From an uncultured virus (IMG/VR IMGVR_UViG_3300042475_003078) (Duplodnaviria > Heunggongvirae > Uroviricota > Caudoviricetes), in the IMG/VR virus record IMGVR_UViG_3300042475_003078: DNA of 64,000 nt; one strand, given 5' to 3'. The notes under the pieces were generated by a model. The model saw only the letters and a list, made by a program, of their open reading frames with translations, had not been told where the DNA came from and did no database searches. Below, piece after piece: positions 546 to 63,781 of this stretch. The first letter of the stretch is position 1; every line of letters begins with the position of its first letter. A program made the position numbers and the translations under genes.

Positions 546-589
546 TTTTTGCGCTGCATTACACTCGCGCCATCGCTACGCTCCAAAAC

Positions 590-1045
590 ATGTTCCGCGA
601 CCTCCCCATTACTGCCAGAGAGCTAAAAGCCACGCCCGCGACGTTGGAGCGCATATACGACGGCGCAAAGCTGGGATTGCGTGGAGATTCGCTTGCGCTG
701 GCTGCGGGTTTGTTGCCGGTGGAGTTGGCCCGGCTGAAGCTCATGGACCCGATTGCGGAGATCGCGGAGATGAAAGGCCGCGCCGACAGCGAGATGACGA
801 TGTCGCGCACGCTGTACGAGGCGGCCGAGGGCGGTGATTCGAAGGCGGCGCTGGAGTTCCTGCGGCACCGCCACGATTGGGTAGCAAAGCAGCAGGTGCA
901 GGTAGACGTCGCGCAGTCGATCAGTATCACTGCGGCTCTGGAGATGGCCGAGAAGCGCGTGCGTGCTGCGGAAGCGATAGAGGATGCGGTGGAAATACGG
1001 CCCCGGCTGGCGCCGCAGGCTCTGGCGGAAATGGGCCCGGTGTAA
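590..1045 (+). CDS. Probable terminase small subunit (module A)
   Basis: 151-aa helical protein directly upstream of TerL; GD..AALEFL..RH.W segment resembles phage TerS C-termini. Confidence 0.6.
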   Translation: MFRDLPITARELKATPATLERIYDGAKLGLRGDSLALAAGLLPVELARLKLMDPIAEIAEMKGRADSEMTMSRTLYEAAEGGDSKAALEFLRHRHDWVAKQQVQVDVAQSISITAALEMAEKRVRAAEAIEDAVEIRPRLAPQALAEMGPV

Positions 1046-1057
1046 CCGAGGAATTGC

Positions 1058-2590: not shown

Positions 2591-2599
2591 GGGTCTGTC

Positions 2600-2854
2600 A
2601 TGGCAAAGTCGGTGTCTCTGAGCGTTGGTCGAGGCGAAAAGCTGCCCACGAAGCAGGGCGCTGGCCTGACGGCTAAAGGCCGCGAGAAGTACAACCGCGA
2701 AACGGGGTCGAACCTGAAGGCGCCGGCGCCGAACCCGAAGACTGAGGCCGACAAGGGCCGAAAAGCGTCGTTTTGCTCGAGAATGGGAGCAGTGGCCGCG
2801 AAAGCCAAGGACGGCGAGCGGGCCAAGGCTGCTCTGAAACGCTGGAAGTGCTGA
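2600..2854 (+). CDS. Small basic phage protein
   Basis: 84 aa, Lys/Arg-rich, RKASFCSRM motif, packed between terL and portal. Confidence 0.7.
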   Translation: MAKSVSLSVGRGEKLPTKQGAGLTAKGREKYNRETGSNLKAPAPNPKTEADKGRKASFCSRMGAVAAKAKDGERAKAALKRWKC

Positions 2855-2856
2855 TC

Positions 2857-3015
2857 ATGCCGCAAAAACCCGGCCTCTACGCCAACATCCACGCCAAGCG
2901 CGAGCGCATTGCTGCCGGAAGCGGTGAAAAGATGCGCAAGCCAGGCGCTCCTGGCGCACCGACCGCCAAAGCGTTCAAAGAGTCGGCCAAAACGGCCAAA
3001 CCGAAGGGGAAATGA
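2857..3015 (+). CDS. Small basic phage protein (MPQKPGLYANIHAKR...)
   Basis: ATG 2 nt after the preceding stop; internal start of track ORF 2773..3015. Confidence 0.65.
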   Translation: MPQKPGLYANIHAKRERIAAGSGEKMRKPGAPGAPTAKAFKESAKTAKPKGK

Positions 3016-3016
3016 C

Positions 3017-3163
3017 ATGCCTCTGGTGAAATCCGCGTCCAAGGACGCGTTTCGCAAGAACGTGAAGACCGAAATGGCGCACGGCAAGCCGCAAAAACAG
3101 GCTGTGGCGGTGGCGTACAACACGCAGCGCATGGCCAAGGCGCCTGCGAAGGGCAAGAAGTAA
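3017..3163 (+). CDS. Small basic phage protein (MPLVKSASKDAF...KQAVAVAY)
   Basis: ATG 1 nt after the previous stop; ends 1 nt before the portal start. Confidence 0.65.
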   Translation: MPLVKSASKDAFRKNVKTEMAHGKPQKQAVAVAYNTQRMAKAPAKGKK

Positions 3164-3164
3164 C

Positions 3165-5318: not shown

Positions 5319-5677
5319 GTTGCGAGAAGTTTATCGGCCAGCTGTTTCTGGCGCGGGATTGCGCTCATTCGACCCACCTCAACACACGCTCGTACGCCAA
5401 GCACAAGGCGCTGGCCAAGTTCTACCACCAGATCATTGACCTGGCAGACAGTTTTGCCGAGGCGTATCAGGGCAAGTACGGCCTGATTGGCCCGGTGGAA
5501 CTGCAGCAGGCCACCAAGACGAACAACGTGGTGGAGTTTCTTGAGGACATGGTGCAGACCATCATGGACACCCGTTACGATGTCGTCGAAAAAGAATGCA
5601 CGCCGCTGCAGAACATCATCGACGAGATTCTGGCGCTGTTTTACAGCACCCTGTACAAGCTGAAATTTTTGGCTTAA
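5315..5677 (+). CDS. Ferritin/Dps-like four-helix protein (DUF5856-like)
   Basis: H..H..T.SYA.HKAL..FY....D..D.FAE.YQG pattern, ending YKLKFLA. Confidence 0.65.
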   Translation: MSCEKFIGQLFLARDCAHSTHLNTRSYAKHKALAKFYHQIIDLADSFAEAYQGKYGLIGPVELQQATKTNNVVEFLEDMVQTIMDTRYDVVEKECTPLQNIIDEILALFYSTLYKLKFLA

Positions 5678-5686
5678 AGGAATATC

Positions 5687-6115
5687 ATGGCGTCGTACAA
5701 CAAGTTTAACGACTTTTCTGAGCAGCTTGTCGAAGGTGTCCATGATTTTGGCGCCAACACGTTTAAAGTTGCCTTGAGCAACTCTGCGCCAATAGCATCA
5801 AACACCGTGTTGGCCGACATTACACAAATTAGCGGCACCAACGGCTATACCACTGGCGGCACGGCAACGACAATTTCTTTGTCGGAAACAAGCGGCACCA
5901 CAACGGTAAACGGCACTGAGGTGGTGTTTACGGCTTCTGGCGGAAGCGTAGGTCCGTTTCGTTACGTTGTGCTTTACAACGATTCCGCCACCTCTCCGCT
6001 GGACGCGCTGGTGGCTTGGTGGGACTACGGCAGCAGCATCACGCTAGCTGACGGCGAGACGTTTACCGTCAAGTTTTCGAACACAACGCCTGGGGCAATC
6101 TTCACGCTGGCTTGA
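5687..6115 (+). CDS. Virion structural protein preceding the tail fibre
   Basis: HDF..NTFKVAL, GYTTGG and GAIFTLA; beta-rich; AAGGA RBS. Confidence 0.65.
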   Translation: MASYNKFNDFSEQLVEGVHDFGANTFKVALSNSAPIASNTVLADITQISGTNGYTTGGTATTISLSETSGTTTVNGTEVVFTASGGSVGPFRYVVLYNDSATSPLDALVAWWDYGSSITLADGETFTVKFSNTTPGAIFTLA

Positions 6116-6336
6116 TCATGATCAAGATTGATTTTGAGTTTGACACCCCTCACGGCAAGTTTGCCGATGCTCTTCATCTGCCTGATGATCACGGCTTCAG
6201 CGAAGCTGAAATCCAGGCGATGAAGGAGCAGCGTCGAGACAACTGGATTGCTGTGGTGACTGCGCCTCCTGTAGAGGTGGAGCCAGAGCCGGAGTACATT
6301 GAGATTGATGGCGTTCGTTACGTGAAGGCAGTGTAA
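6112..6336 (+). CDS. Small hypothetical protein (possible fibre-associated)
   Basis: 74 aa, coupled to neighbouring ORFs. Confidence 0.6.
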   Translation: MIMIKIDFEFDTPHGKFADALHLPDDHGFSEAEIQAMKEQRRDNWIAVVTAPPVEVEPEPEYIEIDGVRYVKAV

Positions 6337-6338
6337 GC

Positions 6339-9300
6339 ATGGCTGATCGCTATTGGGTTGGTGGTTCAGGAAGCTGGAACAGCACTACTAAGTGGTCTAC
6401 GACCTCTGGTGGTGCTTCTGGCGCTTCTGTTCCTACGTCTTCTGATAATGCTATCTTTGACGCCAACTCAGGCACTGCTCATTTCATCGTGACGGTGACA
6501 GACAATGCTACCTGTGCTGATCTCACCATCACACCAGAGCCTGTTGCTGGTGTTACTCAGTTTGCTGTAGGCGTTAACTTTGTCATTGCAGGCACACTGT
6601 CTACTAGTGGCACAGAAGGAAATAGACGCATTTGGTTCCGGTCATCGACCTACGGCTTGATGCGCGACATGCAGATTGCCACTATCGGCACAGTGACCGA
6701 TGTGGACTTCCGCGACATTCGCGTCACAGGCACCGGCGGGACGTTGACAGGAACACGCATTGGTGATTTGCGTGGAAATAACAACATCACCTTCGACACG
6801 CCCAAAACCGTCTACTGGGTCACCCTCGCAGGCGGAAGCTGGAGTGGCAACAACTGGGCTGCAAGCTCTGGCGGCGCAGCCAGCACAGACAACTTCCCGT
6901 TGGCGCAGGATACCGCTGTCATTGAGAACACGGGGTTGAATACGTCGGCTACGGTGACGCTTGATAGTGCGATTCCGTACATTGGAACGCTTGATATGTC
7001 ATCAAGAACTAATGCGATGACATTAAATTTTAGCGCAGTTGGTTATACTATTTACGGAAATTTAACTAACGGATCTGGCACAGCTTATAGTTCTACGTTC
7101 GGCTTAACTTATTCAGGAAGAAATACGCAGGTTATTACAAGCGCTGGTAAAACATTTACGAACGATCTCACTATTGATTCTTACGGTGGAACCGTTGAAC
7201 TTGCCGACGCGCTAAACATTGGTTCGCGAACCCTCACCGTCACCAACGGCACCTTCGACACCAAAAACTACAACGTCACCGCGTCAGTAATAACTACTAA
7301 CAATACCAATGTACGTGGCATCAAGCTAGGCAGCAGCACGTTGACGTTGAGTAATTCAACTACAGCAGTACAACTGGGAGCGATAAATCTTTCCTTTGAC
7401 GCAGGAACATCACAAATAAATTTGACAGGGAACGGCGGTATTAACGGGAGCGGCAATACTTTTTACAACGTCACCTTCACCAGCACAACCGCTGCTACTC
7501 GTAGCATCAATAATGCAAACACGTTCAACAACGTAACCGTTACTGCCCCCGCTACTGCCGGTATAACAACTCTTGCGTTTGACTCTAATCAAACCATCAC
7601 CGGCACCCTCACCGTCGCCGGTGCCACAGCCGTCCGTCGCATCTTCGTCCGCTCCGACACCATCGGCACCACCCGCACCCTCACCGTAGGCACGCTCAGT
7701 GCCGACAATTGCGACTTCCGAGACATCACCATTGCTGGCACCGCAGCAGGCTCTTCTCCGACCCGTGCAGGCGACTGTGGCGGCAACAGCGGCATCACCT
7801 TCCCTGCGGCAAAGACCGTCTATTGGAACCTTGCCGGTACGCAGAACTGGTCTGCAACGGCATGGGCGCCGGGCTCTGGAGGCAGTCCTGACATCAACAA
7901 CTTCCCGTTGGCGCAGGACACGGCTGTGTTTGATGAAGCTGCGGGCAGCGTGACAGGAACCATCACCATCAATGCTGCTTGGAACATCGGCACGTTTGAT
8001 GCGTCGTTGCGGACTAGTGCTATGACGCTCACCACCAGCACTAACACTCCGTTTGTTTATGGAGATTGGAAGTTTGGTACAGGAGTGACGTCGTCTAGTA
8101 CAGCAGGCACGATCACGTTCGCCAAACGCGGAACTCAAACCATTACCAGCAATGGCATTACGTTTGGTTGCCCTATCACGATAGATTCCGTTACGGGTGT
8201 TGTCCAGCTTGCTGATGCGCTGTCGCTTGACTCAACACGTACCCTGACCCTCACATCTGGCACGTTTGATGCGGTGTCGTATAACGTGACGACGGGATTG
8301 TTTAGCGCTGTTTTTGCAACATCAGGTTCCAGATTAAAAATGGGTTCTGGAACGTGGACGCTTTCTGGAACCGGGAGCGTCTGGACTGGTATTTCGTCTG
8401 ATGTTACCTTTTATAAAGGTACTGCAGACATCGTCCTGTCCAACACCAGCACCTCTGCCCGTACATTCACAGGCGGCGGCCTCTCCTACAACAAACTCAC
8501 CATCGGCGGCGCCACCGGCACATCCACCACTACCATCACCGGCAACAACCAATTCACCGAACTCGCCAGCACCAAAACCGTAGCGCACACCATTGCCCTT
8601 GGCAGCACAACGCAGACCTTCGGCAAATGGACGGTGACGGGCACAGCAGGCAACGTCGTCACGCTCACCGGCACAGGCACTGCCCACATCCTCGCTGGAG
8701 CCTGCACAGACAGCATCGACTACCTTGCTATGGGCAGCATCGGCTTCGCTGCCACAAGCCCTGGCGAGTTCTACGCAGGTGCCAACAGCACAGGCACAGC
8801 GGCAGCGCCTGTCTACCGCACAGCCAAACCAGCCGACAGCACACGCTATTGGGTTGGTGGCACAGGCAACTGGAGCGACACCGCTCGTTGGTCTACGTCG
8901 TCTGGTGGAGGCTCAGGCGCGTCTGTGCCGAGAAGCCATGATGATGTTGTCTTTGACAGCGCGTCCAACGCCACAGCCTATACGGCCACGGTCGATACCG
9001 TCACTGGCGGCATCAGGATGAAATCTTTGACTATTGCAGGCCCCGCAAGCGGCAACGTGACGCTGGCTGGCAGCACAGCTATTGTTGGTATTCACGGCAA
9101 CGTGACGCTGCCTGCGACAGGGCTGACAAGGACGTACACAGGCGCTATCACGCTGTCTGGAAGCACGTCAGGCAAGGTGCTGACGACGAATGGTGTTGCG
9201 TTGGCATCGTCTATTACGGTGAATGGGGTTGGGTGTGAGTGGACGTTGGGGAGTGCTTTAGATTTGAGCACAGTAGGGGGCTTTACGTTAGTTAATGGAG

Positions 9301-10838
9301 TTTTTGATTGTGTAACGTACAATTTGACATGCGGGGGAATTACCTGCAGTTCTTCTAATATAAGAACCTTTGACTTTGGGTCCGGGACTATAACGACTTC
9401 TGGTAGTAGTGGCGCATTTGCGTTTGGAACTACGGAAACTACATCTGCTGATCTTACGATTGTTGCCGGAACTGCGCAAATTAACTGCACTGGAAGCAAC
9501 CCAACCTTTTCAGGAAATGGCAAAACCTTCTATAACGTCGCATTTACTGACACATCCGCAGGCACCGTCACCATCAACGGAGCCAACAGTTTTAACAACC
9601 TATCCTTCACCGGCATCACTTCTGCTGGTCTGAAGAACATCAGCGTCACAGCCAACCAGACCATCACCGGCACCTTCACCTGCTCAGCAGGCACCAACGC
9701 CACGATGCGTCACTTCGTCCGCTCTGACGCAATCGGCACCACACGCACATTGACCTGCGCGGCTGTCAGCCTCACTGACGTTGACTTCCGTGACATCACC
9801 ATAGCCGGTGCAGCAGCGCCAGCAACAGGCACGCGCATCGGCGACTGCAAGGGCAACAGCGGCATTACGTTCACGGCTGCGGCGAACAAGTATTGGAACC
9901 TCGCTGCTGGCGGCAACTGGGGTGGTGCTATTGGTTGGGCTACAGGCAGCGGCGGCACGCCGAACATCAACAACTTTCCGTTGGCACAGGACACCTGCTT
10001 CTTTGAAGCTACGGGGCTGAACAGTGGCGCTACCATCACCATCAACCAAGCCTACAACATCGGCACCATCGACATGTCGGCTAGGACGACGAATACGATG
10101 ACGTTGGCTTGTACATTTTCTCCAACTTTTTATGGTAATTGGGTAAATGGCACAGGAACCACAATAAGTGGTTCAGGTGGGTTTACTTTTGCAGGTAGAG
10201 GTTCTCAAACTATTACCAGCGCAGGTAAATCATTTACGCAAACAATTAGTATAGATACACCTAGTGGATCTGTTACATTGCAAGATGCGTTTGTCATGTC
10301 TGTGGGGTCGTCTCAGGCTTTAGCAATAACAAGAGGAACTTTTGATGCTGTTTCTTATAATGTAACGGCAACAGGTGTTGGTGCATCTAATAGCAATATA
10401 CGAACTGTAGCTATAGGCTCTGGAACTTGGACCTTAAGTGGAGCATCGGAGCAGTGGAGCACAACCACCTCCACCAACCTCACCGTCACCGGCACCGGCA
10501 CCATCAGCCTCACCTCCGCATCAGCCAAGACCTTCGCAGGCGGCGGCATCTCCTACAGCAGCATCACCCTCAACCAAGGCGGCGCAGGCACGCTGACCAT
10601 CAGCGGCAACAACACCTTCGCCAACATCACCAACACCTACAGCGCCACTGGTGCCACCACCATCGCCTTTGGCACAACGACACAGCGTGTTGGCAGCTTC
10701 ACTGCCACTGGTGAAGCTGGAAGAGTGTTGACGCTGACAGGCTCTTCTGCATCTTCTCCATGCACACTAGTCCACACAGGCTCTGGTACAGCAGCCGATG
10801 TTGACTATCTCACCATCACAGGCGTTAGGGCATACTAA
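6339..10838 (+). CDS. Large Thr/Gly-rich tail fibre/adhesin-like protein with internal repeats
   Basis: 1499 aa; RYWVGG.G.W...WST.SGG..GASVP x2; YW.....W....WA..SGG....NFPLAQDT x3; beta-helix-like composition. Confidence 0.8.
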   Translation: MADRYWVGGSGSWNSTTKWSTTSGGASGASVPTSSDNAIFDANSGTAHFIVTVTDNATCADLTITPEPVAGVTQFAVGVNFVIAGTLSTSGTEGNRRIWFRSSTYGLMRDMQIATIGTVTDVDFRDIRVTGTGGTLTGTRIGDLRGNNNITFDTPKTVYWVTLAGGSWSGNNWAASSGGAASTDNFPLAQDTAVIENTGLNTSATVTLDSAIPYIGTLDMSSRTNAMTLNFSAVGYTIYGNLTNGSGTAYSSTFGLTYSGRNTQVITSAGKTFTNDLTIDSYGGTVELADALNIGSRTLTVTNGTFDTKNYNVTASVITTNNTNVRGIKLGSSTLTLSNSTTAVQLGAINLSFDAGTSQINLTGNGGINGSGNTFYNVTFTSTTAATRSINNANTFNNVTVTAPATAGITTLAFDSNQTITGTLTVAGATAVRRIFVRSDTIGTTRTLTVGTLSADNCDFRDITIAGTAAGSSPTRAGDCGGNSGITFPAAKTVYWNLAGTQNWSATAWAPGSGGSPDINNFPLAQDTAVFDEAAGSVTGTITINAAWNIGTFDASLRTSAMTLTTSTNTPFVYGDWKFGTGVTSSSTAGTITFAKRGTQTITSNGITFGCPITIDSVTGVVQLADALSLDSTRTLTLTSGTFDAVSYNVTTGLFSAVFATSGSRLKMGSGTWTLSGTGSVWTGISSDVTFYKGTADIVLSNTSTSARTFTGGGLSYNKLTIGGATGTSTTTITGNNQFTELASTKTVAHTIALGSTTQTFGKWTVTGTAGNVVTLTGTGTAHILAGACTDSIDYLAMGSIGFAATSPGEFYAGANSTGTAAAPVYRTAKPADSTRYWVGGTGNWSDTARWSTSSGGGSGASVPRSHDDVVFDSASNATAYTATVDTVTGGIRMKSLTIAGPASGNVTLAGSTAIVGIHGNVTLPATGLTRTYTGAITLSGSTSGKVLTTNGVALASSITVNGVGCEWTLGSALDLSTVGGFTLVNGVFDCVTYNLTCGGITCSSSNIRTFDFGSGTITTSGSSGAFAFGTTETTSADLTIVAGTAQINCTGSNPTFSGNGKTFYNVAFTDTSAGTVTINGANSFNNLSFTGITSAGLKNISVTANQTITGTFTCSAGTNATMRHFVRSDAIGTTRTLTCAAVSLTDVDFRDITIAGAAAPATGTRIGDCKGNSGITFTAAANKYWNLAAGGNWGGAIGWATGSGGTPNINNFPLAQDTCFFEATGLNSGATITINQAYNIGTIDMSARTTNTMTLACTFSPTFYGNWVNGTGTTISGSGGFTFAGRGSQTITSAGKSFTQTISIDTPSGSVTLQDAFVMSVGSSQALAITRGTFDAVSYNVTATGVGASNSNIRTVAIGSGTWTLSGASEQWSTTTSTNLTVTGTGTISLTSASAKTFAGGGISYSSITLNQGGAGTLTISGNNTFANITNTYSATGATTIAFGTTTQRVGSFTATGEAGRVLTLTGSSASSPCTLVHTGSGTAADVDYLTITGVRAY

Positions 10839-12334
10839 TGAGCAACTGGTACGCTGGTAATAATAGCACCAACAACGGCTCCTTTGGTTGGCTCTTTGAA
10901 GCCAGTGGCGGTAGTCCTATCAGCGTCAATGCCACTGGTGTCAGCGCTACAGGCTCTGTTGGTAACGTCAATGTCAATGTAGGCATTTCTGTAGACGTCA
11001 CAGGCGTCAGTGCCACAGGTGCTGTTGGTAGCGTCACTGTTGTCTTTGTAACGTCAGTGCCTGTGACAGGCGTCAGCGCTACAGCCTCTGTTGGTAGTGT
11101 TGATGTCAACACAGACGCTAACGTAGACGTCACAGGAGTCAGCGCTACAGCCTCTGTAGGCTCTGTTACTGTTGAAGCTGATGCTGTCGTAGATGTCACT
11201 GGTGTTAGCGCTACAGGAGCTATAGGCTCTGTTGCTGTCACAGGTGATGCCAACGTTGCTGCTGTTGGTGTCAGCGCCACAGGCACCATTGGCACTGTAG
11301 GCTTCATCACCAACAACACCTTTGGTGTCACAGGTGTCAGTGCTACCGTCTCTGTTGGCACTGTTACCATCACCTTTGACACCAAAGCCAACGTCACTGG
11401 TGTAAGCGCTACAGGTGCTACAGGCTCTGTTGCTGTTACTGGCACTGCTGTCGTAGACGTCACAGGTGTTAGCGCTACAACGACATTAGGCGATGAAGTT
11501 GTTGTTGCTAAGGCTGTTGTAGACGTCACAGGCGTTAGCGCTACAACAACGTTAGGCTCTGTTGCTGTCACCACCACAGCCAATGTCAGTGCTGTTGGTG
11601 TTAGCGCTATAGGCGCTGTAGGCTCTGTTGTTGTCACAGCAGATGCTGTTGTAGATGTCACCGGCGTTAGCGCTACAACAACATTAGGCAACGAAGTTGT
11701 CACTGCTGATGCCAATGCCTATCCCAATGGCAACATCCTTAACGGAAGCATTGGAGACGTAGACCACAGCACCAATGCCAACATCAGCGTCACTGGTGTT
11801 AGCGCTACCATCTCCTTAGGTACTGCTGTTGCGTCCATTGCCATCACAGCAACGACAACAGGTGTTAGCGCTACAACGTCCTTAGGTGATGAGACAGTAG
11901 ATACAACAGCCAATGTAAGTGCTGTTGGTGTAAGCGCTACAGGCGTTGTAGGCAATGTAGACTTCATCACCAACGCCAGCTTCGATGTTGTAGGCGTAAG
12001 CGCTACAGCATTCGTTCAGACAGTCATTGTCATTGCAAAAGCACAGGTGTTTGCTGCTGGTGTTGTAGGCACTACAGCGTTGGGTAATGAAGCAGTAGTC
12101 AACACCTCCTTTGACTATGAAGCTGTTAAAGAGCTGTATGAAAGACTACGCACTGTCTATGTAGGCTCTAAAGATGAAAGAAAGACCTACATTGATGGTC
12201 AAGCAAGAAAAGTGTATGTTGACGGTAGAGACACAAGAAGAGTGTCTGTTGATGCTCAACAACGCATTGTCTATGTCACTTCCGATAGAACAACATCTTC
12301 TAGTGAACGAAGAGCCTATGTAGGCTTGAGTTGA
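10838..12334 (+). CDS. Repeat-rich virion protein (V.VTGVSAT..[VL]G.V, ~20-aa unit)
   Basis: About 20 tandem units encoded by degenerate ggtgtcagcgctaca repeats; start overlaps the previous stop (TAATG). Confidence 0.75.
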   Translation: MSNWYAGNNSTNNGSFGWLFEASGGSPISVNATGVSATGSVGNVNVNVGISVDVTGVSATGAVGSVTVVFVTSVPVTGVSATASVGSVDVNTDANVDVTGVSATASVGSVTVEADAVVDVTGVSATGAIGSVAVTGDANVAAVGVSATGTIGTVGFITNNTFGVTGVSATVSVGTVTITFDTKANVTGVSATGATGSVAVTGTAVVDVTGVSATTTLGDEVVVAKAVVDVTGVSATTTLGSVAVTTTANVSAVGVSAIGAVGSVVVTADAVVDVTGVSATTTLGNEVVTADANAYPNGNILNGSIGDVDHSTNANISVTGVSATISLGTAVASIAITATTTGVSATTSLGDETVDTTANVSAVGVSATGVVGNVDFITNASFDVVGVSATAFVQTVIVIAKAQVFAAGVVGTTALGNEAVVNTSFDYEAVKELYERLRTVYVGSKDERKTYIDGQARKVYVDGRDTRRVSVDAQQRIVYVTSDRTTSSSERRAYVGLS

Positions 12335-17155: not shown

Positions 17156-19591
17156 ATGAAAACATCCTTTACCTCTAAGCAGCGTGAAATACTAGCTCGT
17201 AAGATGGGCTACGACGGCCCTATGCAGGGCTTTGATGACTTTCTTAATAGCTCACCAGCGTTGATGATGAAGTACAACGCTGTGACGGATAAGTATGCTC
17301 AGAGGATGGCTAAGGGAGGGTCTGTCACGGGTTATGCTGTGGGTGGTGTTGTTAGCTATGAAGAATGGCTGAAGACAGCGCCTAAGACTCAGAGAAGAGC
17401 TTTTGGTGGTACAAGGGCACTGACTGAACAAGAACTCCGTGATAACTACGAAAAATATCGTCAAAATCCTACAGGCGCCGGTGAGAGTTTTGCCACTGAC
17501 ATTACACCACCAGAGCCAACAGAACAGCAACAAACGACAGCACCTGCGCCAGCACCTGCGCCAGCACCTACCTCTACGACTAACATCACCCTTCCAGGCG
17601 TTAGCACTGGAACTACACCTGTCACTGTTTCTCCTAATGTGTCTCAGCAAATGTCTGAGATGGGTCCGTTTCCTCGAGGGACAGCGCCAGCACCTGCGCC
17701 AGCACCTGCGCCAGCACCTGCGCCAGCACCTGCGCCAGCACCTGCGCCAGCACCTGCGCCAGCACCTGCGCCAGCACCTGCGCCAGCACCTGCGCCAGCA
17801 CCGAGCGTCACAGGCGGTGGTGACGTCACCTTCAGCGAAGAACAAGGACGCACTGGTACACCTTCACCAGGTGCTGCTGCTGGCTTCACCCCTGCAACGA
17901 CATCAATTACACCGGGGCAAGACATCTCGGGTGTAGGGGGTGCTGGCACTGCTAAGACGGTGACAGATATTAAGACAGCAACGGCTGAAGAAGCAAAGAT
18001 GCCTGCTGCTATCACAGCAACGACAATGGAGGCGTCTAAGTCTGCTGAAGGTGTTAAAGGTGTATTAGAGGGAACCAAGCCACTTAGCTTTGAAGAGTGG
18101 AGTAAAGATAAGGTTTTTCCTGCTGTTATAAGAATAGGGCCCGATGGAGAACCTATTGATGCCGCACGAGAAGGATATGAAGAATATGTCAGAACCTTCA
18201 AACCTGAAGGCGGTGTTCAAGCTGTAAAAGGCACTGTCAGCAAAGAAGCTCAAGTTGATGCAGCACAAAAAGAACCTACAGAGACTGTTCTGTCCGACCT
18301 AGAAGCAGAACAGCTTGATAAAGCTAGAGAGGTTCAAGCACCTCCTGAACTCACTGTAGGTGCTGGTGAGCTTTTGGACAAATCTGCTGTCAATATGGCT
18401 AAGGTTGATGAAGCCATTGCCAAGACAAAGGAAGAAGCTGCACAAGGGGTTGTCTCTGAAGACATGACCGTACAGGGCCAGCTTACGAAGCTCACAGCAA
18501 ATTTTGATGCTAAGAATCCTCCTGGCTGGGCCGCTGGCGCTCTGCGTGTAGCTACAGCCACATTGGCACAGAGAGGCTTAAGCGCTTCTTCTATGGCAGG
18601 CGCTGCTATTGTCCAAGCAGCTATTGAGTCGGCCTTACCTATTGCAACTACCGATGCTAAAGCCTATCAAGCAATGGCTGAGCAAAATTTAAGCAACAGA
18701 CAAGCAATGGCTGTGCTGGCGGCACAACAAAGAGCCGCTTTCTTAGAACAAGAGTTCAACCAAGAGTTTGAAGTGAAGGTGAAGAATGCTGCTCGCATTG
18801 CTGACGTTGCCAATATCAACTTCACAGCTAAACAACAAATTGCGTTAGAGAACGCCAGGCTAGCTCAGTCTGTGGATTTGGCAAACTTAGAGAATAGACA
18901 AGCTGTTGTCATCGCTAAAGCGGCTCAGATGGCTACGTTAGAAACCACCAACCTAACCAACCTACAGCAAGCTGCTGTTACAAATGCTCAGTCTTTCTTG
19001 GCAATGGATATGGCAAACTACGACAGAGAGCAGAAGACAACACTGTTTAAGACAGAGCAACTTGTACAGTCATTGTTGTCTGACACAGCGGCTGAGAATG
19101 CTGCTAAACAGTTTAACGCAGCAAATAAGACTCAGGTAGATCAGTTCATGGCGACTCTTGCTTCTACAATATCTCAGTTTAATGTAGCTCAGCGTAATGC
19201 TCTAGCTCAGTTTAGTACAGATCAAGTGAACTCAGTCACAAAGTTCAACACTGAACAAGAAAACCTGAGGGATCAGTTTAACTCTACGCAGCGTCTCGTC
19301 ATCGATCAGAGCAATGCTCAATGGCGTAGAGAAGTAAGCACTGCTGACACTGCTGCTCTCAATGTTGCTCTGTATTTAGGTGCTCAGAATTTGCAACAGA
19401 TGACGTTGGCTGAGTACAATAATGAGACTCAACTCTATCGAGATCAGATTGAGAAGGTGTGGTCTAGCTTTGAGAAGAATGAAGATAGAAGAGCAGAAAT
19501 ATTAAAAGCAGAAATCAGCGGTGCCGCTGCTGAAGACGCCGCCGAGGCTGGACTATGGCAGAGTATTGTTGGTGGGCTGATGAAGCTCTGA
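17156..19591 (+). CDS. Internal virion/ejection-type protein with (AP)n linker
   Basis: 811 aa, Ala/Gln-rich with QFN repeats in the C-terminal half; position among internal virion genes. Confidence 0.7.
17684..17803 (+). repeat. 12-bp tandem repeat GCGCCAGCACCT x10, encoding (AP)20
   Basis: Read directly; a shorter copy lies at ~17539-17569. Confidence 0.95.
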
Positions 19592-25296: not shown

Positions 25297-25373
25297 TGGT
25301 GCGGAGAAGGGGATTCGAACCCCTAAAACTCAGGGTTTAAGCCTGATACGTATGCCAATTCCGTCACCCCCGC
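25297..25373 (-). tRNA. tRNA-Leu(TAA), short variable loop
   Basis: GCGGGGG/TCTCCGC acceptor stem, TCAGG-CTTAAAC-CCTGA anticodon arm, TTCGAAT T-loop, encoded CCA. Confidence 0.9.
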
Positions 25374-25379
25374 TGTTGT

Positions 25380-25462
25380 TGGTGCTGGAGATGAGACTCG
25401 AACTCATGAAGGTTTCCCGACGGCTTACAAAACCGTTGCAATTGCCGCTATGCGACTCCAGC
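25380..25462 (-). tRNA. tRNA-Thr(TGT), long variable arm
   Basis: GCTGGAG/CTCCAGC acceptor stem, ACGGT-TTTGTAA-GCCGT anticodon arm, 12-nt variable region, TTCGAGT T-loop, CCA. Confidence 0.82.
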
Positions 25463-25464
25463 TT

Positions 25465-25541
25465 TGGCGCATCCAGTAGGAATCGAACCTACAACCTACG
25501 CCTTAGAAGGGCGTTGCTCTGTCCAGTTGAGCTATGGACGC
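25465..25541 (-). tRNA. tRNA-Arg(TCT)
   Basis: GCGTCCA/TGGATGC acceptor stem, GCTC/GAGC D-stem, ACGCC-CTTCTAA-GGCGT anticodon arm, CCA. Confidence 0.93.
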
Positions 25542-54906: not shown

Positions 54907-57091
54907 AAGGGAAGTTCTCTTCGGAGGAGCTGCCGGTGGTAGAGGTCAAGGCCTTTCTCTTGCCACCTTTCATTGGTAACAATGTCAAAATAAACTTCGT
55001 GAATTGCTGGAACGTTTTGTAACGTGACCGTGCTACAGCATAACCGGCGACGGTAGGTGCGAATGCTAGAAAAACGATCACCAGAAACTATCAGCAGCCA
55101 AGCAAGTCATTGACTTGAAGGTTCAGAGACTATCCCGTAAGGGAGTACACCGAAAGGTGGAAGCGCGAAGCCCCTGTAAAGGGTGAAGATATAGTCCGAG
55201 GCGCACTAACCAGCTATAAGCTGAAGGAGCATACATGACACAGTATTGCCTATATAAAGCCACATCTCCGTCTGGAAAAGTCTATGTTGGTATCACCAAC
55301 AATTTCAAACGAAGAATGAAAGAACACCGAACCAGCAAGTATCCATTTGGTGCTGCTCTTAGAAAATACGGAATAGATTCTTTTGTTTTTGAGTTTGAGT
55401 TGTTTGAGTGTGTGGAAGATGCTTTAGCAAGAGAGCAAGAATTAGCTAACTTAGACACCTTGGACAAAGAAAAGATGTACAACATCAGCGTCGGTGGGGT
55501 ATTTGCGAATGTCCTAAAAGATCAAAATCCGATGAAAAACAAAGATGTTGTTGACAAACATCCTAATGTATGGAGAAAAGGCAGTAAAAACAATCCTATA
55601 TTGAACCCTGAGATTAAAGAAAAAATGATTAAGTCTCAGAAGTGTAAAAAGGTATCAATAGATGGTGTTATTTACTACGGCGTTAGGGAAGCAGCAAGGC
55701 AGTTGAGCATATCTAGGCAGTTGGTTGTCTATAGACTCAAAGCCAAGAGCTTCGATACGTGGTTTTATGTGAAAGAACAATAGTGCGCCTCGGGAAAAAG
55801 TTACGCAATCTTAGCTGACCCATTACGTTACATCTCTCATCCGCAGTTTTCAGGGCTTCTGTTGCGTCATACAACAGAAGAACTAAGAGAACTCATCTGG
55901 AAAAGCCAAGAACTCTACCCAAAAATCATTCCAGGTATTGTTTGGAGTGAGAGAAAGATGCAATGGGTGTCGCCAAGTGGTGGCAGATTGTGGATGTCAT
56001 ACCTCGATAGAGACGAAGACGTTCTTAGATATCAGGGTTTGAGCTTCGTTTGGGTTGGTTTTGACGAACTCAGCCAATGGTCTACGCCTTTTGCGTGGAA
56101 CTATATGCGTTCTCGCCTCAGAACAGCAGCGTCTGACCTGCCTGTTTACATGAGAGCAACGACTAACCCAGGCAATGCTGGTCATGGGTGGGTTAAGAAG
56201 ATGTTCATTGACCCTGCACCACCTGGTCAAGCCTTCTGGGCAACAGACATTGACACTGGTGAAGTGTTACGTTACCCCAAAGGACACAGCAAAGAAGGTC
56301 TGCCGTTGTTTAAGCGGCGTTTCATCCCTTCAAGACTCTCTGACAACCCCTATCTTGCTGCCTCAGGCGACTACGAAACCATGTTGTTGTCGCTTCCGGA
56401 GCAACAACGTCGTCAACTTCTTGATGGTGACTGGGATGTTGCTGAAGGTGCCGCGTTTCCTGAGTTTAAGAGAAGCGTTCATGTCGTTGATTCCTATGAC
56501 ATTCCTCATGATTGGCCTAGATTTAGAGCCTGTGACTACGGATATGGAAGCTGGTCTGCTGTTTTGTGGTTTGCTGTAGCCCCAGATGAGTCATTAGTGG
56601 TATATAGAGAGCTATATGTCACTAAAGTGCTTGCAGAAGACTTGGCAGAGATGGTGTTGAACGCTGAAGACGGTGAAAAGATACGTTATGGTGTTCTAGA
56701 CAGCTCTACATGGCATAAAAGAGGCGACACAGGCCCTTCCATTGCTGAAAGAATGATAATGAAGGGGTGTCGTTGGCGTCCTTCTGACAGAAGTGCTGGT
56801 AGTAGAGTGTCTGGTAAGAACGAAATACATAGACGTCTTCAGATAGATTCCTTCACAGAGCGTCCGCGTATTGTCTTTTTCAGCAACTGTGTTAAAACTA
56901 TTGCTGAACTACCAACAATACCTCTAGATAAGAAGAATCCAGAGGACATTGACACCAACATCAACTTTGATCACGGATATGACGCATTGAGATATGGTGT
57001 AATGTCAAGACCGAGGAGTAAAAACATCTTTGACACTAATACATCGGGGCAGAGCGGCTTCGCTCCAGCATCGAAAGTTTTTGGATACTAG
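54806..57091 (+). CDS. terL: Terminase large subunit (module B), spliced: exon 1 54806-54940 + exon 2 55793-57091 (~477 aa)
   Basis: Joining restores FGGAAGG|GKSYAIL (Walker A); Walker B GFDEL, TNPG, DYGY and DHGYDALRY. Start codon uncertain. Confidence 0.92.
54941..55792 (+). mobile_element. Group I intron (IA2-like) in terL
   Basis: Exon ends in U and pairs with IGS GCCACC (54962-54967); P 55002-55012, Q ~55090-55099, R GTTCAGAGACTA 55121-55132, S AAGATATAGTCC 55186-55197; terminal G at 55792. Confidence 0.93.
55235..55783 (+). CDS. Intron-encoded GIY-YIG homing endonuclease
   Basis: CLY.......VYVGIT.....R...H with conserved E and YN; C-terminal NUMOD1-like HTH; AAGGAG RBS. Confidence 0.88.
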   Translation: MTQYCLYKATSPSGKVYVGITNNFKRRMKEHRTSKYPFGAALRKYGIDSFVFEFELFECVEDALAREQELANLDTLDKEKMYNISVGGVFANVLKDQNPMKNKDVVDKHPNVWRKGSKNNPILNPEIKEKMIKSQKCKKVSIDGVIYYGVREAARQLSISRQLVVYRLKAKSFDTWFYVKEQ

Positions 57092-61643: not shown

Positions 61644-61873
61644 TGTTGACATTGGAGTGAAATTGTGATTTAACGTGGTAGCAGCATCTTCCCGTGTAAC
61701 AACACCAACGAAGATGCTCTACATCTTGTGTCGTATTGAACGATGTTCGTCGTACACTCTAGGAGCTTAGCCGTTACTGAGCATGTTGCTATAGAGACAT
61801 GTTTATGACCACCTAATGCAAATAGACCCGAAAGAATAAGGAGATACGTTAGCCATTATTAAGGAGAAATCAA

Positions 61874-63781
61874 ATGGCGTTTGCATCAGCTTCGGGCTAT
61901 ACAAGCCTCCAAAATGGTAATTGGTCGCCAATTATCTACAGTAAAAAAGTACAACTCGCGTTTAGGAAATCTTCGGTCGCCCAAGCGATCACCAACTCCG
62001 AATATTTCGGAGAAATCTCCAGCATGGGCGATGCAGTCCGCATCGTTAAGGAGCCTGAGGTCAGCGTGCAGGCTTATGCTCGCGGTACTCAGATCACGGC
62101 TCAAGACCTTGATGACAGCGATTTCACGCTGGTTGTCGATAAGGCCAACTACTTCGCGTTTAACACTAACAGACGCATTTGAGAGTAATCTCATCTAAAT
62201 AACTGGGTGAATTGCTGGAAAACCTAAATAAAGTGTTGACAACTACTTCGATCATGATATACCATCGACATAACCGATGGGGGTCATATGAAGAAGTGTT
62301 CCAAGTGTAAAGAAGAAAAAGAACTAAGCGAGTTTCCAAAAACCAAGACAAACAAAGACGGCTACTCTTATCTATGCTTCCCTTGTAACAGGGAAACTTC
62401 TAGAAGATACAGACAAGAAAACTCTGAAACCTACTACAGGAATCAGAAACAAAAGAGACAAGAAGAGCCGACGTTTGTAGCACAACTCTTGTACGCAACT
62501 AAAACAAGAGCACAGAAGAAGAAGTTAGATCACACACTGACTTTTGACTTCTTGCTAAAGTTGCTAAAAGAATCAGAATACAAGTGTGCTGTAACAGGTC
62601 TTGAAATGAATCTCAAAACAGATTCTAGGAAAAAAGCTAATTTGTTTAAGTGCTCCTTAGATAGAATTGACTCTACTAAGGGATACACTGAAGACAACGT
62701 TCAATTTGTCTGCTGGGCTGTGAACCAGATGAAAGCAGACAAAACAGAAGATGAATTAAAGTTTTGGACAGAAACACTTTACAAGGCAATCAGCAGCCAA
62801 GCATAGACCGAAAGGTCTTTGAAGGTTCAACGACTAGGATATACCGCCCTACGGGGAGATGAAATCCATACGCTCAAGTGAGCGGAAGCGCCCAGCCCCT
62901 GATAAGTCAGGGTGATGATATAGTCTACTCTGCATTGAAAAATGCAGCAGCTTGAATAAAGCGGGTAAGGATTAACGACCCTTGCTGAATATAAAGGTAA
63001 AGTTGACGACATCGAAGCAACTCAGTCGCACATCAATTGGATGTCTTTGGCATCTGATCGTGCTGCCTATCGCTTGAAGGACCAGTTCGACCAAGACGTT
63101 CTCGGCTACCTCGCTGGTTATCAACAGTCTGTGTTGCATGGCAGCGCCGACACCGCCCGCACTACCTTCCCTGGTACGAAGGCTGTTTCGACTGCTGGTA
63201 ACGACGAACTGCTGACGTCGATGAAGCTCATCAAGGGCTCGTTTGGCAACATCACCACTGTTAGTGCTGGTGACCACTCTGTTCCCATTGCAGCGCGTCT
63301 GCCTGGTGCTACGGCTCTGTCTACGTCGGTGGTGTCGCCGTTGATGATCATTGCTCGTATGTCGCGTCTGTTGGATCAGCAAAACGTTGACACCACTGGT
63401 CGTTGGCTTGTGGTTGATCCGGTGTTCGTTGAAGTGCTGAAGGACGAAGACAGCCGTCTTCTGAATGCAGACTTCGGTGGCTCTGGTCTGCAAAACGGTC
63501 TTCTGTTGAACAACCTGCACGGCTTCAAGGTCTATGTCAGCAACAACCTGCCGAAGGTTGGTACTGGCCCGGGCACGACAGGCACGGCTAACCAGAACAC
63601 CGATTTCGGTGTCATCGTTGCCGGTCACGACAACGCTGTTGCTTCTGCTGAGCAGATCAACAAGACTGAGACCTATCGCGATCCGGACTCGTTTGCTGAC
63701 ATTGTGCGTGGTATGCACCTCTATGGCCGAAAAATTCTCAGAAGTGAGGCCATTACCACCTGCAAGTACAACGTGGCCTAA
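61874..63781 (+). CDS. Major capsid protein, spliced: exon 1 61874-62160 + exon 2 62998-63781 (356 aa)
   Basis: Joining gives DKANYFAF|KVDDIE; P.IYSK, GD.V.I, RWLVVDP, SNNLP and D.VRG...YG motifs; AAGGAG RBS. Confidence 0.9.
62161..62997 (+). mobile_element. Group I intron (IA2-like) in the major capsid gene
   Basis: Exon end GCGUU pairs with IGS GACGC (62172-62176); P 62210-62220, Q 62788-62798, R GTTCAACGACTA 62825-62836, S TGATATAGTCT 62916-62926; P3 CTGGGT/GCCCAG; terminal G at 62997. Confidence 0.92.
62288..62806 (+). CDS. Intron-encoded zinc-finger/HNH-like endonuclease
   Basis: CSKC...CFPC, CAVTG and SLDRIDSTKGY..DNVQFVC..VN.MK motifs. Confidence 0.8.
   Translation: MKKCSKCKEEKELSEFPKTKTNKDGYSYLCFPCNRETSRRYRQENSETYYRNQKQKRQEEPTFVAQLLYATKTRAQKKKLDHTLTFDFLLKLLKESEYKCAVTGLEMNLKTDSRKKANLFKCSLDRIDSTKGYTEDNVQFVCWAVNQMKADKTEDELKFWTETLYKAISSQA

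What the first reader, a model, noticed from the sequence alone, without database searches (positions are those of the whole stretch)
62161..62997. Group I intron in the major capsid gene with an endonuclease ORF overlapping the ribozyme core
Seen: removing 837 nt gives ...YFAF|KVDDIE.... The 172-aa ORF lies between the P and Q elements, and its last codons (AISSQA*) are the Q element itself. Established: most characterised phage group I introns sit in DNA-metabolism genes. Inference: synthesis of the most abundant virion protein depends on splicing, and translating the ORF would compete with core folding.
Basis: partly seen in the sequence, partly recalled or inferred. Interest (0 to 1): 0.75.

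Follow-up and report, generated by a model that had tools for sequence, protein, structure and literature searches.

The report
Mobile intron splitting a phage capsid gene
The major capsid gene of this freshwater phage is interrupted by a self-splicing, mobile group I intron that carries its own DNA-cutting enzyme gene, a well-documented new example of a known kind of selfish element.

Summary
Window 62161-62997 (837 nt) is a group IA intron in the P22-coat-like major capsid gene of an HMO-2011-type podophage. Removing it gives a 356-aa protein that aligns end to end with uninterrupted capsid genes; 79 of 81 assessable relatives have no insert at this codon. Two relatives carry a 294-nt ORF-less intron at the same site (Rfam 92.7 and 89.7 bits). 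One is 99-100% identical to the window's intron outside a 555-nt cassette. That cassette sits in the P5a loop and encodes a 172-aa PacI-like HNH endonuclease. Its last 32 nt are P5a', P5', P4' (the "Q" element), P6 and the start of P6a. The C-terminus KAISSQA is kept in 19 of 21 aligned homologues. Four diverged intron copies give 23 compensatory pairs among 77, including one in P1. Intron copies 98% identical sit in capsid genes whose exons are only 78-93% identical, flanked by perfect-identity tracts, which is the signature of homing. One metatranscriptome contig joins 62160 to 62998 exactly. Capsid-gene introns and ORF-core overlap ("core creep") are already published, so this is a new member of a known kind. 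A second intron, with a GIY-YIG gene, splits terL.

The parts
61874..62160 (+). Major capsid protein exon 1 (95 codons plus 2 nt of the Phe-96 codon)
   Evidence: phrog_267 major head protein, 1e-13, profile positions 38-115. Aligns with residues 1-96 of intron-less capsid proteins.
62161..62997 (+). Group IA intron, 837 nt, preceded by U62160 and ending in G62997
   Evidence: RF00028 at 49.1 bits. The same intron without the ORF scores 92.7 bits in L005. Covariation. An RNA contig joins 62160 to 62998.
62156..62176 (+). P1: exon GCGUU plus U (62156-62161) paired with the internal guide AGACGC (62171-62176). U62160.G62172 is the splice-site wobble.
   Evidence: L091 has exon GCC with guide GGC, a compensatory change.
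62180..62182 (+). UGA stop in the exon-1 frame, 7 codons into the intron, inside the P2 5' strand
   Evidence: L088 and L091 also stop after 5 and 2 codons.
62180..62193 (+). P2 hairpin UGAGA-GUAA-UCUCA
   Evidence: 2 of 5 pairs compensatory; GNRA loops in all copies.
62203..62225 (+). 5' strands of P3 (62203-62209), P4 ('P' element, 62213-62218) and P5 (62223-62225)
   Evidence: They pair with 62889-62895, 62790-62795 and 62784-62786.
62228..62782 (+). 555-nt endonuclease cassette in the P5a loop, replaced by 12 nt in the ORF-less allele
   Evidence: Window 62101-62227 and 62783-63058 are 99-100% identical to L005. DNA run X12 holds the 555-nt-skipping form with the same 12 letters.
62229..62235 (+). 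P5a 5' strand UAAAGUG, pairs with 62775-62781 and closes the ORF loop
   Evidence: 7 bp, 2 compensatory pairs among the 3 ORF-bearing copies.
62236..62265 (+). Sigma-70-like promoter candidate: TTGACA, 18-nt spacer, TACCAT
   Evidence: 10 of 12 matches, but the region has no more such sites than shuffles give. TTGAC is kept in L088 and L091. Inference only.
62240..62250 (+). 11-mer CAACTACTTCG, a copy of exon-1 positions -15 to -5 (62146-62156)
   Evidence: Shuffle P 0.0065. The 10-mer occurs 3 times in the window against 0.10 expected. Meaning unknown.
62279..62290 (+). Shine-Dalgarno-like GGGGG (62279-62283) and the AUG of the endonuclease ORF, partly paired in a predicted local hairpin
   Evidence: Fold -20.2 kcal/mol, z -1.97, 6 of 200 shuffles as good. 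Paired ribosome-binding regions are also predicted in L088 and L091. Weak.
62288..62806 (+). 172-aa HNH (beta-beta-alpha-metal, PacI-like) homing endonuclease ORF
   Evidence: phrog_1035 1.3e-37 and phrog_3118 1.7e-15. AF2 model pLDDT 88.6. Foldseek top hit PacI 3ldy_A, E 1.5e-5. 61 proteins at E<=0.001, including the window's own.
62775..62806 (+). 32-nt overlap of the ORF 3' end with P5a', P5', J5/4, P4' ('Q'), P6 and the first 2 nt of P6a
   Evidence: No nucleotide change in AAGGCAATCAGCAGCCAAGC among copies that differ at 117-119 codons elsewhere.
62796..62826 (+). P6 (62796-62798 / 62824-62826) and P6a (62805-62809 / 62814-62818) with a GAAA loop
   Evidence: 4 of 5 P6a pairs compensatory.
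62832..62925 (+). P7 (62832-62836 / 62921-62925; the 'R' and 'S' elements), P7.1 (62837-62840 / 62864-62867), P7.2 (62871-62875 / 62880-62884), P3' (62889-62895), P8 (62897-62900 / 62909-62912)
   Evidence: P7.1 has 4 of 4 and P7.2 has 1 of 5 compensatory pairs. P7.1 and P7.2 between P7 and P3' point to subgroup IA.
62930..62985 (+). P9 (62930-62936 / 62941-62947, GAAA loop) and two peripheral hairpins (62950-62962, 62965-62985)
   Evidence: P9 has 3 of 7 compensatory pairs. The peripheral hairpins are present in each copy but misaligned in my alignment.
62998..63781 (+). Major capsid protein exon 2 (last nt of Phe-96, 260 codons, stop)
   Evidence: phrog_267 4.6e-41, profile positions 117-324. 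51-79% identical to capsid proteins of the 18 best-matching phage records (H31-H48), all named HMO-2011-type or rhizobial phages apart from one unclassified Caudoviricetes sp. genome, MW202701.

Best explanation
This is a mobile group IA intron in the major capsid gene of an HMO-2011-type phage. The gene is transcribed as one pre-mRNA. A ribosome translating exon 1 stops at a UGA 7 codons into the intron. The intron folds: exon GCGUU pairs with guide GACGC in P1, and the core runs P3-P9 with P7.1/P7.2. It splices by the usual guanosine-initiated route and joins U62160 to U62998, giving mRNA for a 356-aa P22-like coat protein. A 555-nt cassette in the P5a loop encodes a PacI-like HNH endonuclease with its own ribosome-binding site and perhaps its own promoter. 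In mixed infections this enzyme is inferred to cut or nick intron-less capsid alleles near the insertion site. Repair then copies in the intron and adjoining exon tracts (homing). The last 10 codons of the ORF double as P5a', P5', P4' and P6, so a ribosome finishing the ORF must unwind the P4-P6 domain. One RNA molecule therefore cannot be fully translated and catalytically folded at the same time. Shown here: the anatomy, conservation, covariation, the population signature of transfer, and an exactly joined RNA contig. Inferred: catalysis, endonuclease activity and target, promoter use, and the translation-versus-folding conflict.
For: (1) The spliced product aligns end to end with intron-less capsid proteins, and the exons hit adjoining profile positions.
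(2) Of 80 viral-contig loci, 78 are assessable. 76 are uninterrupted at this codon, and 2 (L005, L061) carry a 294-nt ORF-less intron there. 3 of 3 isolates are uninterrupted.
(3) Rfam RF00028 scores: L005 92.7, L061 89.7, L091 (with ORF) 51.4, window 49.1, L086 49.3, L088 44.6 bits; the gathering score is 50.
(4) In my hand-drawn structure, 23 of 77 pairs carry compensatory changes and 348 of 366 cells are standard pairs, across 5 copies.
(5) The intron is 98.3% identical (14 of 837 differ) in L086 and L087. Their exon 1 is 78.0% and 89.2% identical, and their exon 2 is 90.1% and 93.1% identical. Perfect-identity tracts of 47 and 65 nt lie upstream, and of 19 and 214 nt downstream.
(6) The endonuclease is under purifying selection: 11 synonymous against 1 non-synonymous codon difference versus L086. 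45 of the 61 proteins found (the window's own included) are exactly 172 aa. KAISSQA is kept in 19 of 21 aligned homologues.
(7) The predicted fold matches PacI and other HNH nucleases.
(8) RNA run X15 holds a contig (211 nt, depth 7.6) that joins 62160 to 62998, with 0 and 1 differences on its two sides. The same run holds an intron-containing contig. None of 79 intron-less alleles shares these flanks, even over +-8 nt.
Against: The window's own intron falls 0.9 bits short of Rfam's gathering score. The structure was drawn from the window's sequence and tested on only 4 effectively independent copies, with no shuffle control. 17 of the 18 non-standard cells lie in the two peripheral hairpins, which my alignment misplaces. 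The joined RNA contig has only 27 (+3 ambiguous) letters on its short side, below the tool's bridging criterion of 31. RNA libraries can also hold DNA, and only one DNA run, from another study, was laid. A precise intron-loss allele is therefore not excluded. The endonuclease has no Pfam or NCBIfam hit, and its sequence match to PacI is weak (E 0.3). Its catalytic residues and target site are untested. The promoter-like site is not above chance, and the hairpin over the ribosome-binding site is only marginally better than shuffles.
Confidence: 0.88

Rival explanations
1. The intron splices, but the endonuclease no longer drives homing. It would be decaying, or kept for another role such as interference with co-infecting relatives, as reported for the PhiPA3 intron endonuclease.
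For: ORF-less copies of the same intron persist at the same site (L005, L061; further ORF-less loop variants in runs X12 and X15). That fits the known cycle of endonuclease gain and loss. No intron-less allele among 79 has the exact flanks of the intron-bearing allele, so perfect targets may be rare. The competitive role of an intron endonuclease is published (PMC11620839, abstract only).
Against: The ORF is intact and of constant length in most homologues. Differences from L086 are 11 synonymous to 1 non-synonymous. Nearly identical introns sit in diverged capsid genes with co-conversion-like tracts, which points to recent transfer. Homing endonucleases usually tolerate target variation (Hausner 2014 passage).
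Confidence: 0.08
2. The insert is not removed at the RNA level, or only inefficiently. The joined RNA contig would come from an intron-less DNA allele, and the capsid would be made from two polypeptides or from another gene.
For: There is no direct splicing assay. The joined contig is short on one side, and RNA libraries may contain DNA.
Against: The core is complete and covarying, with U.G in P1 and a terminal G, and the ORF-less twin has a strong Rfam score. The window holds no second capsid copy. Exon 2 has no start codon before residue 15 and no visible ribosome-binding site there. The split falls inside the invariant ANYFAFK motif. The phage lineage recurs in at least 20 sequencing runs, so it is viable.
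Confidence: 0.02
3. The element is an assembly or annotation artefact: a chimeric join inside the capsid gene.
For: The first 12 kb of the window appear to belong to a different phage, so the record is not wholly trustworthy.
Against: The same 1908-nt gene-plus-intron arrangement is found identically in L084 and L085, and with variation in L086-L091, from other samples. It also occurs in contigs of several public runs.
Confidence: 0.01

Closest known systems
Phage T4 td intron with I-TevI
   Same: A group IA phage intron with an endonuclease ORF in a peripheral loop. The ORF's 3' end supplies core helices: 20 nt of P6a/P6.0/P7 in td. It has an in-frame stop just after the 5' splice site, a ribosome-binding-site hairpin and its own promoters (Edgell et al. 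2011, PMC3073962, passages).
   Different: The enzyme here is HNH (PacI-like), not GIY-YIG. The ORF sits in the P5a loop, not P6. The overlap is 32 nt, covering P5a'/P5'/P4'/P6. The host gene encodes the capsid protein, not thymidylate synthase. Nothing has been tested experimentally here.
Mycobacteriophage LittleE capsid-gene intron (Pope et al. 2013, PMC3706429); the Tuc2009 capsid intron is cited there
   Same: An intron with an endonuclease gene inside a major capsid subunit gene. Splicing was shown by RT-PCR and N-terminal protein sequencing. The authors make the same point, that the most abundant virion protein depends on splicing (passages).
   Different: LittleE is a temperate siphovirus. 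Its intron type was called 'most likely group I'. Its ORF is LAGLIDADG-like and lies on the opposite strand. There is no sequence relationship to this intron.
HNH-bearing group I introns in DNA polymerase, terminase and helicase genes of other phages (for example Escherichia phages PhAPEC5/7, Shigella phage Moonfish, Salmonella phage PVPSE1, Vibrio phage qdvp001)
   Same: The 3' half of this intron (window about 62784-63003) is 69-78% identical in DNA to inserts in those genes (rows H13-H30; 237 records matched some part of the 2-kb query). The ribozyme therefore belongs to a widespread phage intron lineage.
   Different: The host genes and insertion sites differ. I did not check the position of their ORFs within the intron. 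The HNH protein here has no close relative in isolates: the matches covering most of its length are at most about 35% identical, and shorter partial matches reach 47%.
Collaborative homing: an ORF-less intron plus a free-standing endonuclease (cyanophage S-PM2 psbA / F-CphI)
   Same: Relatives of this HNH occur as free-standing genes immediately upstream of uninterrupted capsid genes (L001, L012, L093, L094, L098). ORF-less introns occupy the capsid site in others. These are the ingredients of the published pathway to composite mobile introns (Hausner 2014, PMC3984707, passage).
   Different: No locus was seen with both a free-standing HNH and an ORF-less intron. The targets of the free-standing enzymes are unknown, and identity to the intron-borne HNH is only 32-36% overall.

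Membership tests
Group I intron (Rfam RF00028) | Covariance-model score at or above the curated gathering score (50 bits) | tested here: inconclusive
   Window 49.1 bits, missed at gathering threshold. The same intron without the 555-nt cassette scores 92.7 (L005) and 89.7 (L061). ORF-bearing L091 scores 51.4.
Group I intron (Rfam RF00028) | The 5' exon ends in U, paired with G of the internal guide in P1; the intron ends in G | tested here: met
   U62160.G62172 and G62997. A P1 compensatory change is seen in L091. Terminal GG|UAA is kept in all 5 copies.
Group I intron (Rfam RF00028) | Conserved core P3-P8 with P/Q/R/S elements, supported by covariation | tested here: met
   Rfam alignment of R, S, P8 and P9. 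23 of 77 pairs compensatory and 95.1% standard pairs. The structure is hand-drawn, rests on 5 sequences, and had no shuffle control.
Group I intron (Rfam RF00028) | Guanosine-dependent self-splicing | not testable with these tools
   Needs in vitro transcription and a GTP assay.
Group I intron (Rfam RF00028) | Ligated exons present in RNA | tested here: inconclusive
   One metatranscriptome contig joins 62160 to 62998 exactly. Its short side is 27+3 nt, and DNA carry-over or an intron-loss allele is not excluded.
Subgroup IA | Extra helices P7.1/P7.2 between P7 and P3' | tested here: met
   Two hairpins at 62837-62867 and 62871-62884 with compensatory changes. The subgroup criterion is recalled from the literature and named in the Hausner 2014 passage. 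Finer subgrouping was not attempted.
HNH (beta-beta-alpha-metal) homing endonuclease | HNH-type fold or profile match | tested here: met
   phrog_1035 1.3e-37 and phrog_3118 'HNH endonuclease' 1.7e-15. Foldseek: PacI E 1.5e-5, prob 1.00, then Gme HNH and Cas9 HNH domains. No Pfam or NCBIfam hit.
HNH (beta-beta-alpha-metal) homing endonuclease | Catalytic motif residues | tested here: inconclusive
   D125, N137 and N146 are invariant, and R126 and D128 nearly invariant, in the SLDRID...N...N block. This block aligns with PacI's DRSD...N...N. There is no canonical first His, and residue roles were not verified.
HNH (beta-beta-alpha-metal) homing endonuclease | Cleaves the intron-less allele and drives unidirectional gene conversion | not testable with these tools
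   Only the population signature is available: a near-identical intron in diverged exons with flanking identity tracts.
P22-coat-like major capsid protein (phrog_267) | Full-length profile and homologue match after removal of the insert | tested here: met
   The HMO-2011 homologue is annotated Pfam PF11651 P22 coat in its record. The separate exons gave no Pfam hit.

The most novel reading that the evidence does not exclude
This lineage may preserve the birth of a composite mobile intron in one gene. The states seen are: intron-less capsid alleles; the same capsid allele with an ORF-less intron (L005) or with the HNH-bearing intron (L087); and free-standing HNH relatives parked just upstream of the capsid gene in other relatives. 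The ORF borrows its last 8 codons from pre-existing core sequence. An 11-nt copy of the 5'-exon target sits inside the cassette's putative promoter; it could be an operator for autorepression or a scar of the invasion. If so, the system would allow direct tests of endonuclease-gene invasion, 'core creep' and translation-versus-splicing trade-offs in the most highly expressed late gene of an abundant aquatic phage group.
Probability: 0.3. Interest if true: 0.55.

Novelty: new member of a known kind. Interest (0 to 1): 0.35.

Why it matters
It adds a well-resolved case of a mobile group I intron in a virion structural gene of HMO-2011-type phages, an abundant aquatic group. My literature search found no report of introns in this group. 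One search returned 7 papers holding both 'HMO-2011' and 'intron'. I read the intron passages of only one, and they concern other phages. In practice, gene callers split this capsid gene into two ORFs plus an 'HNH endonuclease', and the window's terL likewise. Capsid- or terL-based surveys, phylogenies and primers for this group will therefore mis-handle such genomes. The population data also make this a useful natural system for studying how endonuclease genes invade introns and then share sequence with the ribozyme core. Those data comprise ORF-less and ORF-bearing copies in the same capsid background, co-conversion tracts, and a C-terminus frozen by RNA structure.

Tried and rejected
- Rfam at gathering threshold found only 3 tRNAs; the intron appeared only at the E-value threshold.
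- The window's own assembly is not held. The nearest record, G001, is a 28-kb fragment without this region.
- The search of earlier findings returned nothing.
- The MAFFT alignment A2 of whole introns misplaced the 5' parts of the ORF-less copies, so I did not use it for pair counts. I used a composite alignment made in a script instead.
- P7.1a (CCC/GGG) was dropped from the final count because the alignment was offset there.
- Pfam and NCBIfam gave no family for the HNH ORF, and a PDB sequence search gave only PacI at E 0.3.
- The weak Rfam hits (freshwater-2, mir-976, ZNRD1-AS1; E 6.7-7.9) are chance.
- The promoter scan found no excess over shuffles and no terminator.
- Run X17's joint (skips 844 nt, 7 other letters between, 31 differences in 182 nt) comes from a diverged relative and says nothing about this intron.
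- I considered and rejected an intein (stops in all frames, RNA core present) and a group II intron (no match, wrong boundaries).
- The Bastillevirinae intron paper holds none of the terms 'capsid', 'structural protein' or 'late genes'.
Full report
**Observation**

The region holds an ORF of 102 aa (61874-62182) that starts a capsid-like protein and stops 7 codons after ...YFAF. It also holds a 172-aa ORF (62288-62806) and a long open frame from 62999 to 63781. The two outer pieces hit the same PHROG, phrog_267 'major head protein', at adjoining profile positions: 38-115 (E 1e-13) and 117-324 (E 4.6e-41). Joining 62160 to 62998 gives a 356-aa protein. It aligns without a gap at the junction with the uninterrupted capsid proteins of MW202701 (356 aa), Roseobacter phage CRP-1 (356 aa) and Puniceispirillum phage HMO-2011 (353 aa). 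The junction motif ANYFAFK(V/I)DDIE is conserved in all of them. The phage is therefore an HMO-2011-type podophage, and the runs that hold it are mostly lake-water metagenomes.

**Is it a group I intron?**

- At Rfam's gathering threshold nothing but three tRNAs was reported.
- With the E-value threshold, RF00028 matches 62637-62947 at 49.1 bits (gathering score 50, E 4.9e-11). The R, S, P8 and P9 elements align well, but the 5' half is forced into the ORF.
- The shortfall is explained by a relative. Contig L005 (60,015 bp; capsid exons 93-97% identical in protein) has a 294-nt insert at exactly the same codon, and it scores 92.7 bits.
- Outside window 62228-62782 the two introns are 99-100% identical. 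In L005 those 555 nt are replaced by 12 nt.
- L061 has a 77%-identical ORF-less intron at the same site, scoring 89.7 bits.

**Structure**

I drew the structure on the window and tested it on L005, L061, L088 and L091. The ORF-bearing copies were cut at the P5a loop inside a script.

- Of 77 pairs in 15 helices, 23 show compensatory double changes. A further 5 show one-sided changes only, and 44 never vary.
- 348 of 366 cells are standard pairs.
- 17 of the 18 exceptions lie in the two peripheral 3' hairpins. My alignment is offset there, although each copy has its own hairpins.
- In L091 the exon reads GCC and the guide GGC, against GCG and CGC elsewhere. This fixes P1 and the 5' splice site after U62160, with a U.G wobble.
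- All copies end in G.
- P7.1 and P7.2 lie between P7 and P3', which indicates subgroup IA.

The caveats are that only four copies are effectively independent, that the structure was derived from one of them, and that I ran no shuffle control.

**The ORF and its overlap with the core**

The ORF belongs to phrog_1035 (1.3e-37), with weaker hits to HNH families. It has no Pfam or NCBIfam match. An AlphaFold model built from 22 sequences (pLDDT 88.6) is closest to the HNH restriction enzyme PacI (E 1.5e-5). Other HNH nucleases follow.

The cassette sits in the loop of a 7-bp helix, P5a (62229-62235 / 62775-62781), which covaries among the three ORF-bearing copies.

In L005 the same core letters exist without any ORF. 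The ORF therefore ends in pre-existing ribozyme sequence, as the 'core creep' model proposes (Edgell et al. 2011, PMC3073962, passages read).

The double constraint is visible in the homologues:
- The search returned 61 proteins, the window's own among them. I aligned 21 of the other 60, chosen to span 48-78% identity.
- 19 of the 21 end in KAISSQA, although mean column identity is 53%.
- The 20 nt AAGGCAATCAGCAGCCAAGC are unchanged in copies that differ at 117-119 codons elsewhere.
- A few homologues read on into ...EGSTTI, which is the R element translated.

**Mobility**

A search with the HNH alignment returned 80 viral-contig loci. Eight of them (L084-L091) have the ORF inside an intron at this same capsid codon. 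L084 and L085 are identical to the window over 1908 nt and may not be independent.

| Locus | Intron | Exon 1 | Exon 2 | Perfect identity upstream | Perfect identity downstream |
|---|---|---|---|---|---|
| L086 | 98.3% (14 of 837 differ) | 78.0% | 90.1% | 47 nt | 19 nt |
| L087 | 98.3% (14 of 837 differ) | 89.2% | 93.1% | 65 nt | 214 nt |

This is the pattern expected from homing with co-conversion of flanking markers (Hausner et al. 2014, passage).

L005 and L087 share the same exon differences from the window. The same capsid background therefore exists with the ORF-less and with the ORF-bearing intron. The ORF is under purifying selection, with 11 synonymous against 1 non-synonymous codon difference versus L086.

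None of 79 intron-less alleles matches the intron-bearing flanks over even +-8 nt. Only 14% have the G at position -3 that pairs in P1.

**RNA evidence**

I laid three metatranscriptome runs and one DNA run on the region. All are kept as contigs only.

- RNA run X15 holds a 211-nt contig (depth 7.6) that joins 62160 to 62998, skipping exactly 837 nt. It has 0 differences in 27 nt on one side and 1 in 184 nt on the other.
- The same run also holds an intron-containing contig, 62134-62894 (depth 10.9).
- The 27+3 shared letters probably equal the overlap between branching contigs of a de Bruijn assembly with 31-letter words. That is my inference; the output does not state it.
- The DNA run X12 shows no 837-nt skip. 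It does hold the 555-nt skip with the L005 loop letters.

This fits splicing, and the joined contig has flanks that no intron-less allele in my sample has. It falls short of proof: the short side is under the tool's 31-letter criterion, DNA may be present in RNA libraries, and no DNA run of the same sample was available.

**Expression of the endonuclease (inferred)**

The exon-1 frame stops at UGA 62180-62182. L088 and L091 also stop within 5 and 2 codons. This is the usual arrangement that keeps ribosomes out of the core (passage).

Upstream of the ORF lie a GGGGG Shine-Dalgarno-like run and a predicted hairpin that pairs part of it and the AUG. The fold is -20.2 kcal/mol with z -1.97, and 6 of 200 shuffles fold as well. 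L088 and L091 also fold over their ribosome-binding regions, with different structures.

A TTGACA-18-TACCAT site follows P5a directly. It scores 10 of 12, but the region has no more such sites than shuffles give. TTGAC is kept in all three ORF-bearing copies.

How the phage manages it is not shown. For T4 td, published work ties delayed I-TevI translation to efficient splicing; I saw only the title of that paper in a reference list, plus a review passage.

**Comparison and novelty**

- Introns in phage capsid genes are in print. Mycobacteriophage LittleE was shown by RT-PCR and protein sequencing, and that paper cites a capsid-gene intron in Tuc2009 (PMC3706429, abstract and passages).
- Introns in terminase genes are common.
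- ORF-core overlap is a standard feature (PMC3984707, Fig. 2 legend; PMC3073962, Table 1).
- The 3' half of this ribozyme is 69-78% identical to introns in DNA polymerase, helicase and terminase genes of many isolates (rows H13-H30).
- I found no report of introns in HMO-2011-type phages. One search returned 7 papers, and I read the intron passages of only one.

The verdict is a new member of a known kind. Its added value is the natural series of states in one gene.

**Leads**

Relatives of the HNH (32-36% identity) stand as free genes immediately upstream of uninterrupted capsid genes in L001, L012, L093, L094 and L098. This recalls the collaborative-homing route to composite introns.

An 11-mer of exon 1 (positions -15 to -5) recurs in the spacer of the cassette's promoter-like site (P 0.0065 by shuffling). 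L091 has an 8-mer at the matching place, and L088 has none. It might be an operator or an invasion scar. This is unexplained.

Noticed in passing
window 54941-55792: A second group I intron (RF00028 48.8 bits at 54937-55201) splits the large terminase gene inside the Walker A codons (...GGAAGG | GKSYAILADP...). It carries a 182-aa GIY-YIG ORF at 55235-55783 (TIGR01453 'group I intron endonuclease', 4e-17, above cutoff). I placed the boundaries by alignment with the uninterrupted TerL of MW202701.
   Followed up: partly
window 1-12300: G+C is 53-63% here against 43-52% in the rest. This part carries a different large terminase (1058-2587, phrog_2) and portal (3165-5315, phrog_156), so the window holds two sets of packaging genes. 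It probably joins two phage genomes or contigs, or is a chimeric assembly.
   Followed up: partly
window 62240-62250 and 62146-62156: The 11-mer CAACTACTTCG of the 5' exon is repeated inside the endonuclease cassette, between the -35-like and -10-like hexamers (shuffle P 0.0065). TAAAGtgTTGAC just before it resembles the start of exon 2. It could be an operator or a recombination scar.
   Followed up: partly
L061 1686-2563 and 2696-2948; L074 840-1014; L091 3257-3482: Other relatives carry further introns in or next to the capsid gene. L061 has a second intron with a LAGLIDADG-like ORF after capsid residue about 62 (40.6 bits). L074 has a hit upstream of exon-1 residues 45-95 (36.9 bits). L091 has a 55.1-bit intron at the 3' end of, or just after, the capsid gene.
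   Followed up: partly
L001 2206-2775; L012 about 2124-2585; L093/L094 2501-2959; L098 457-927: Free-standing relatives of the HNH (32-36% identity overall) lie immediately upstream of uninterrupted capsid genes, on the same strand.
   Followed up: partly
L103 2340-2997; L154 2825-3012: Distant HNH relatives (28-32% identity) also sit in or beside group I intron hits (37 and 36 bits). I did not identify the host genes.
   Followed up: no
window 61644-61873: An untranslated gap of 230 nt lies between the scaffold-like gene and the capsid start. Gaps of similar length occur in CRP-1 (263 nt) and HMO-2011 (240 nt). It was not analysed.
   Followed up: no
window 25300-25541 (- strand): A cluster of three tRNA genes (Rfam 53-70 bits).
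   Followed up: no
window 11060-11975 and 17535-17802: Internal repeats: diverged repeats of about 66-130 nt inside the 10838-12334 ORF region, and a short-period tandem array (12-nt steps) at 17.5-17.8 kb, both seen in the self-BLAST.
   Followed up: no
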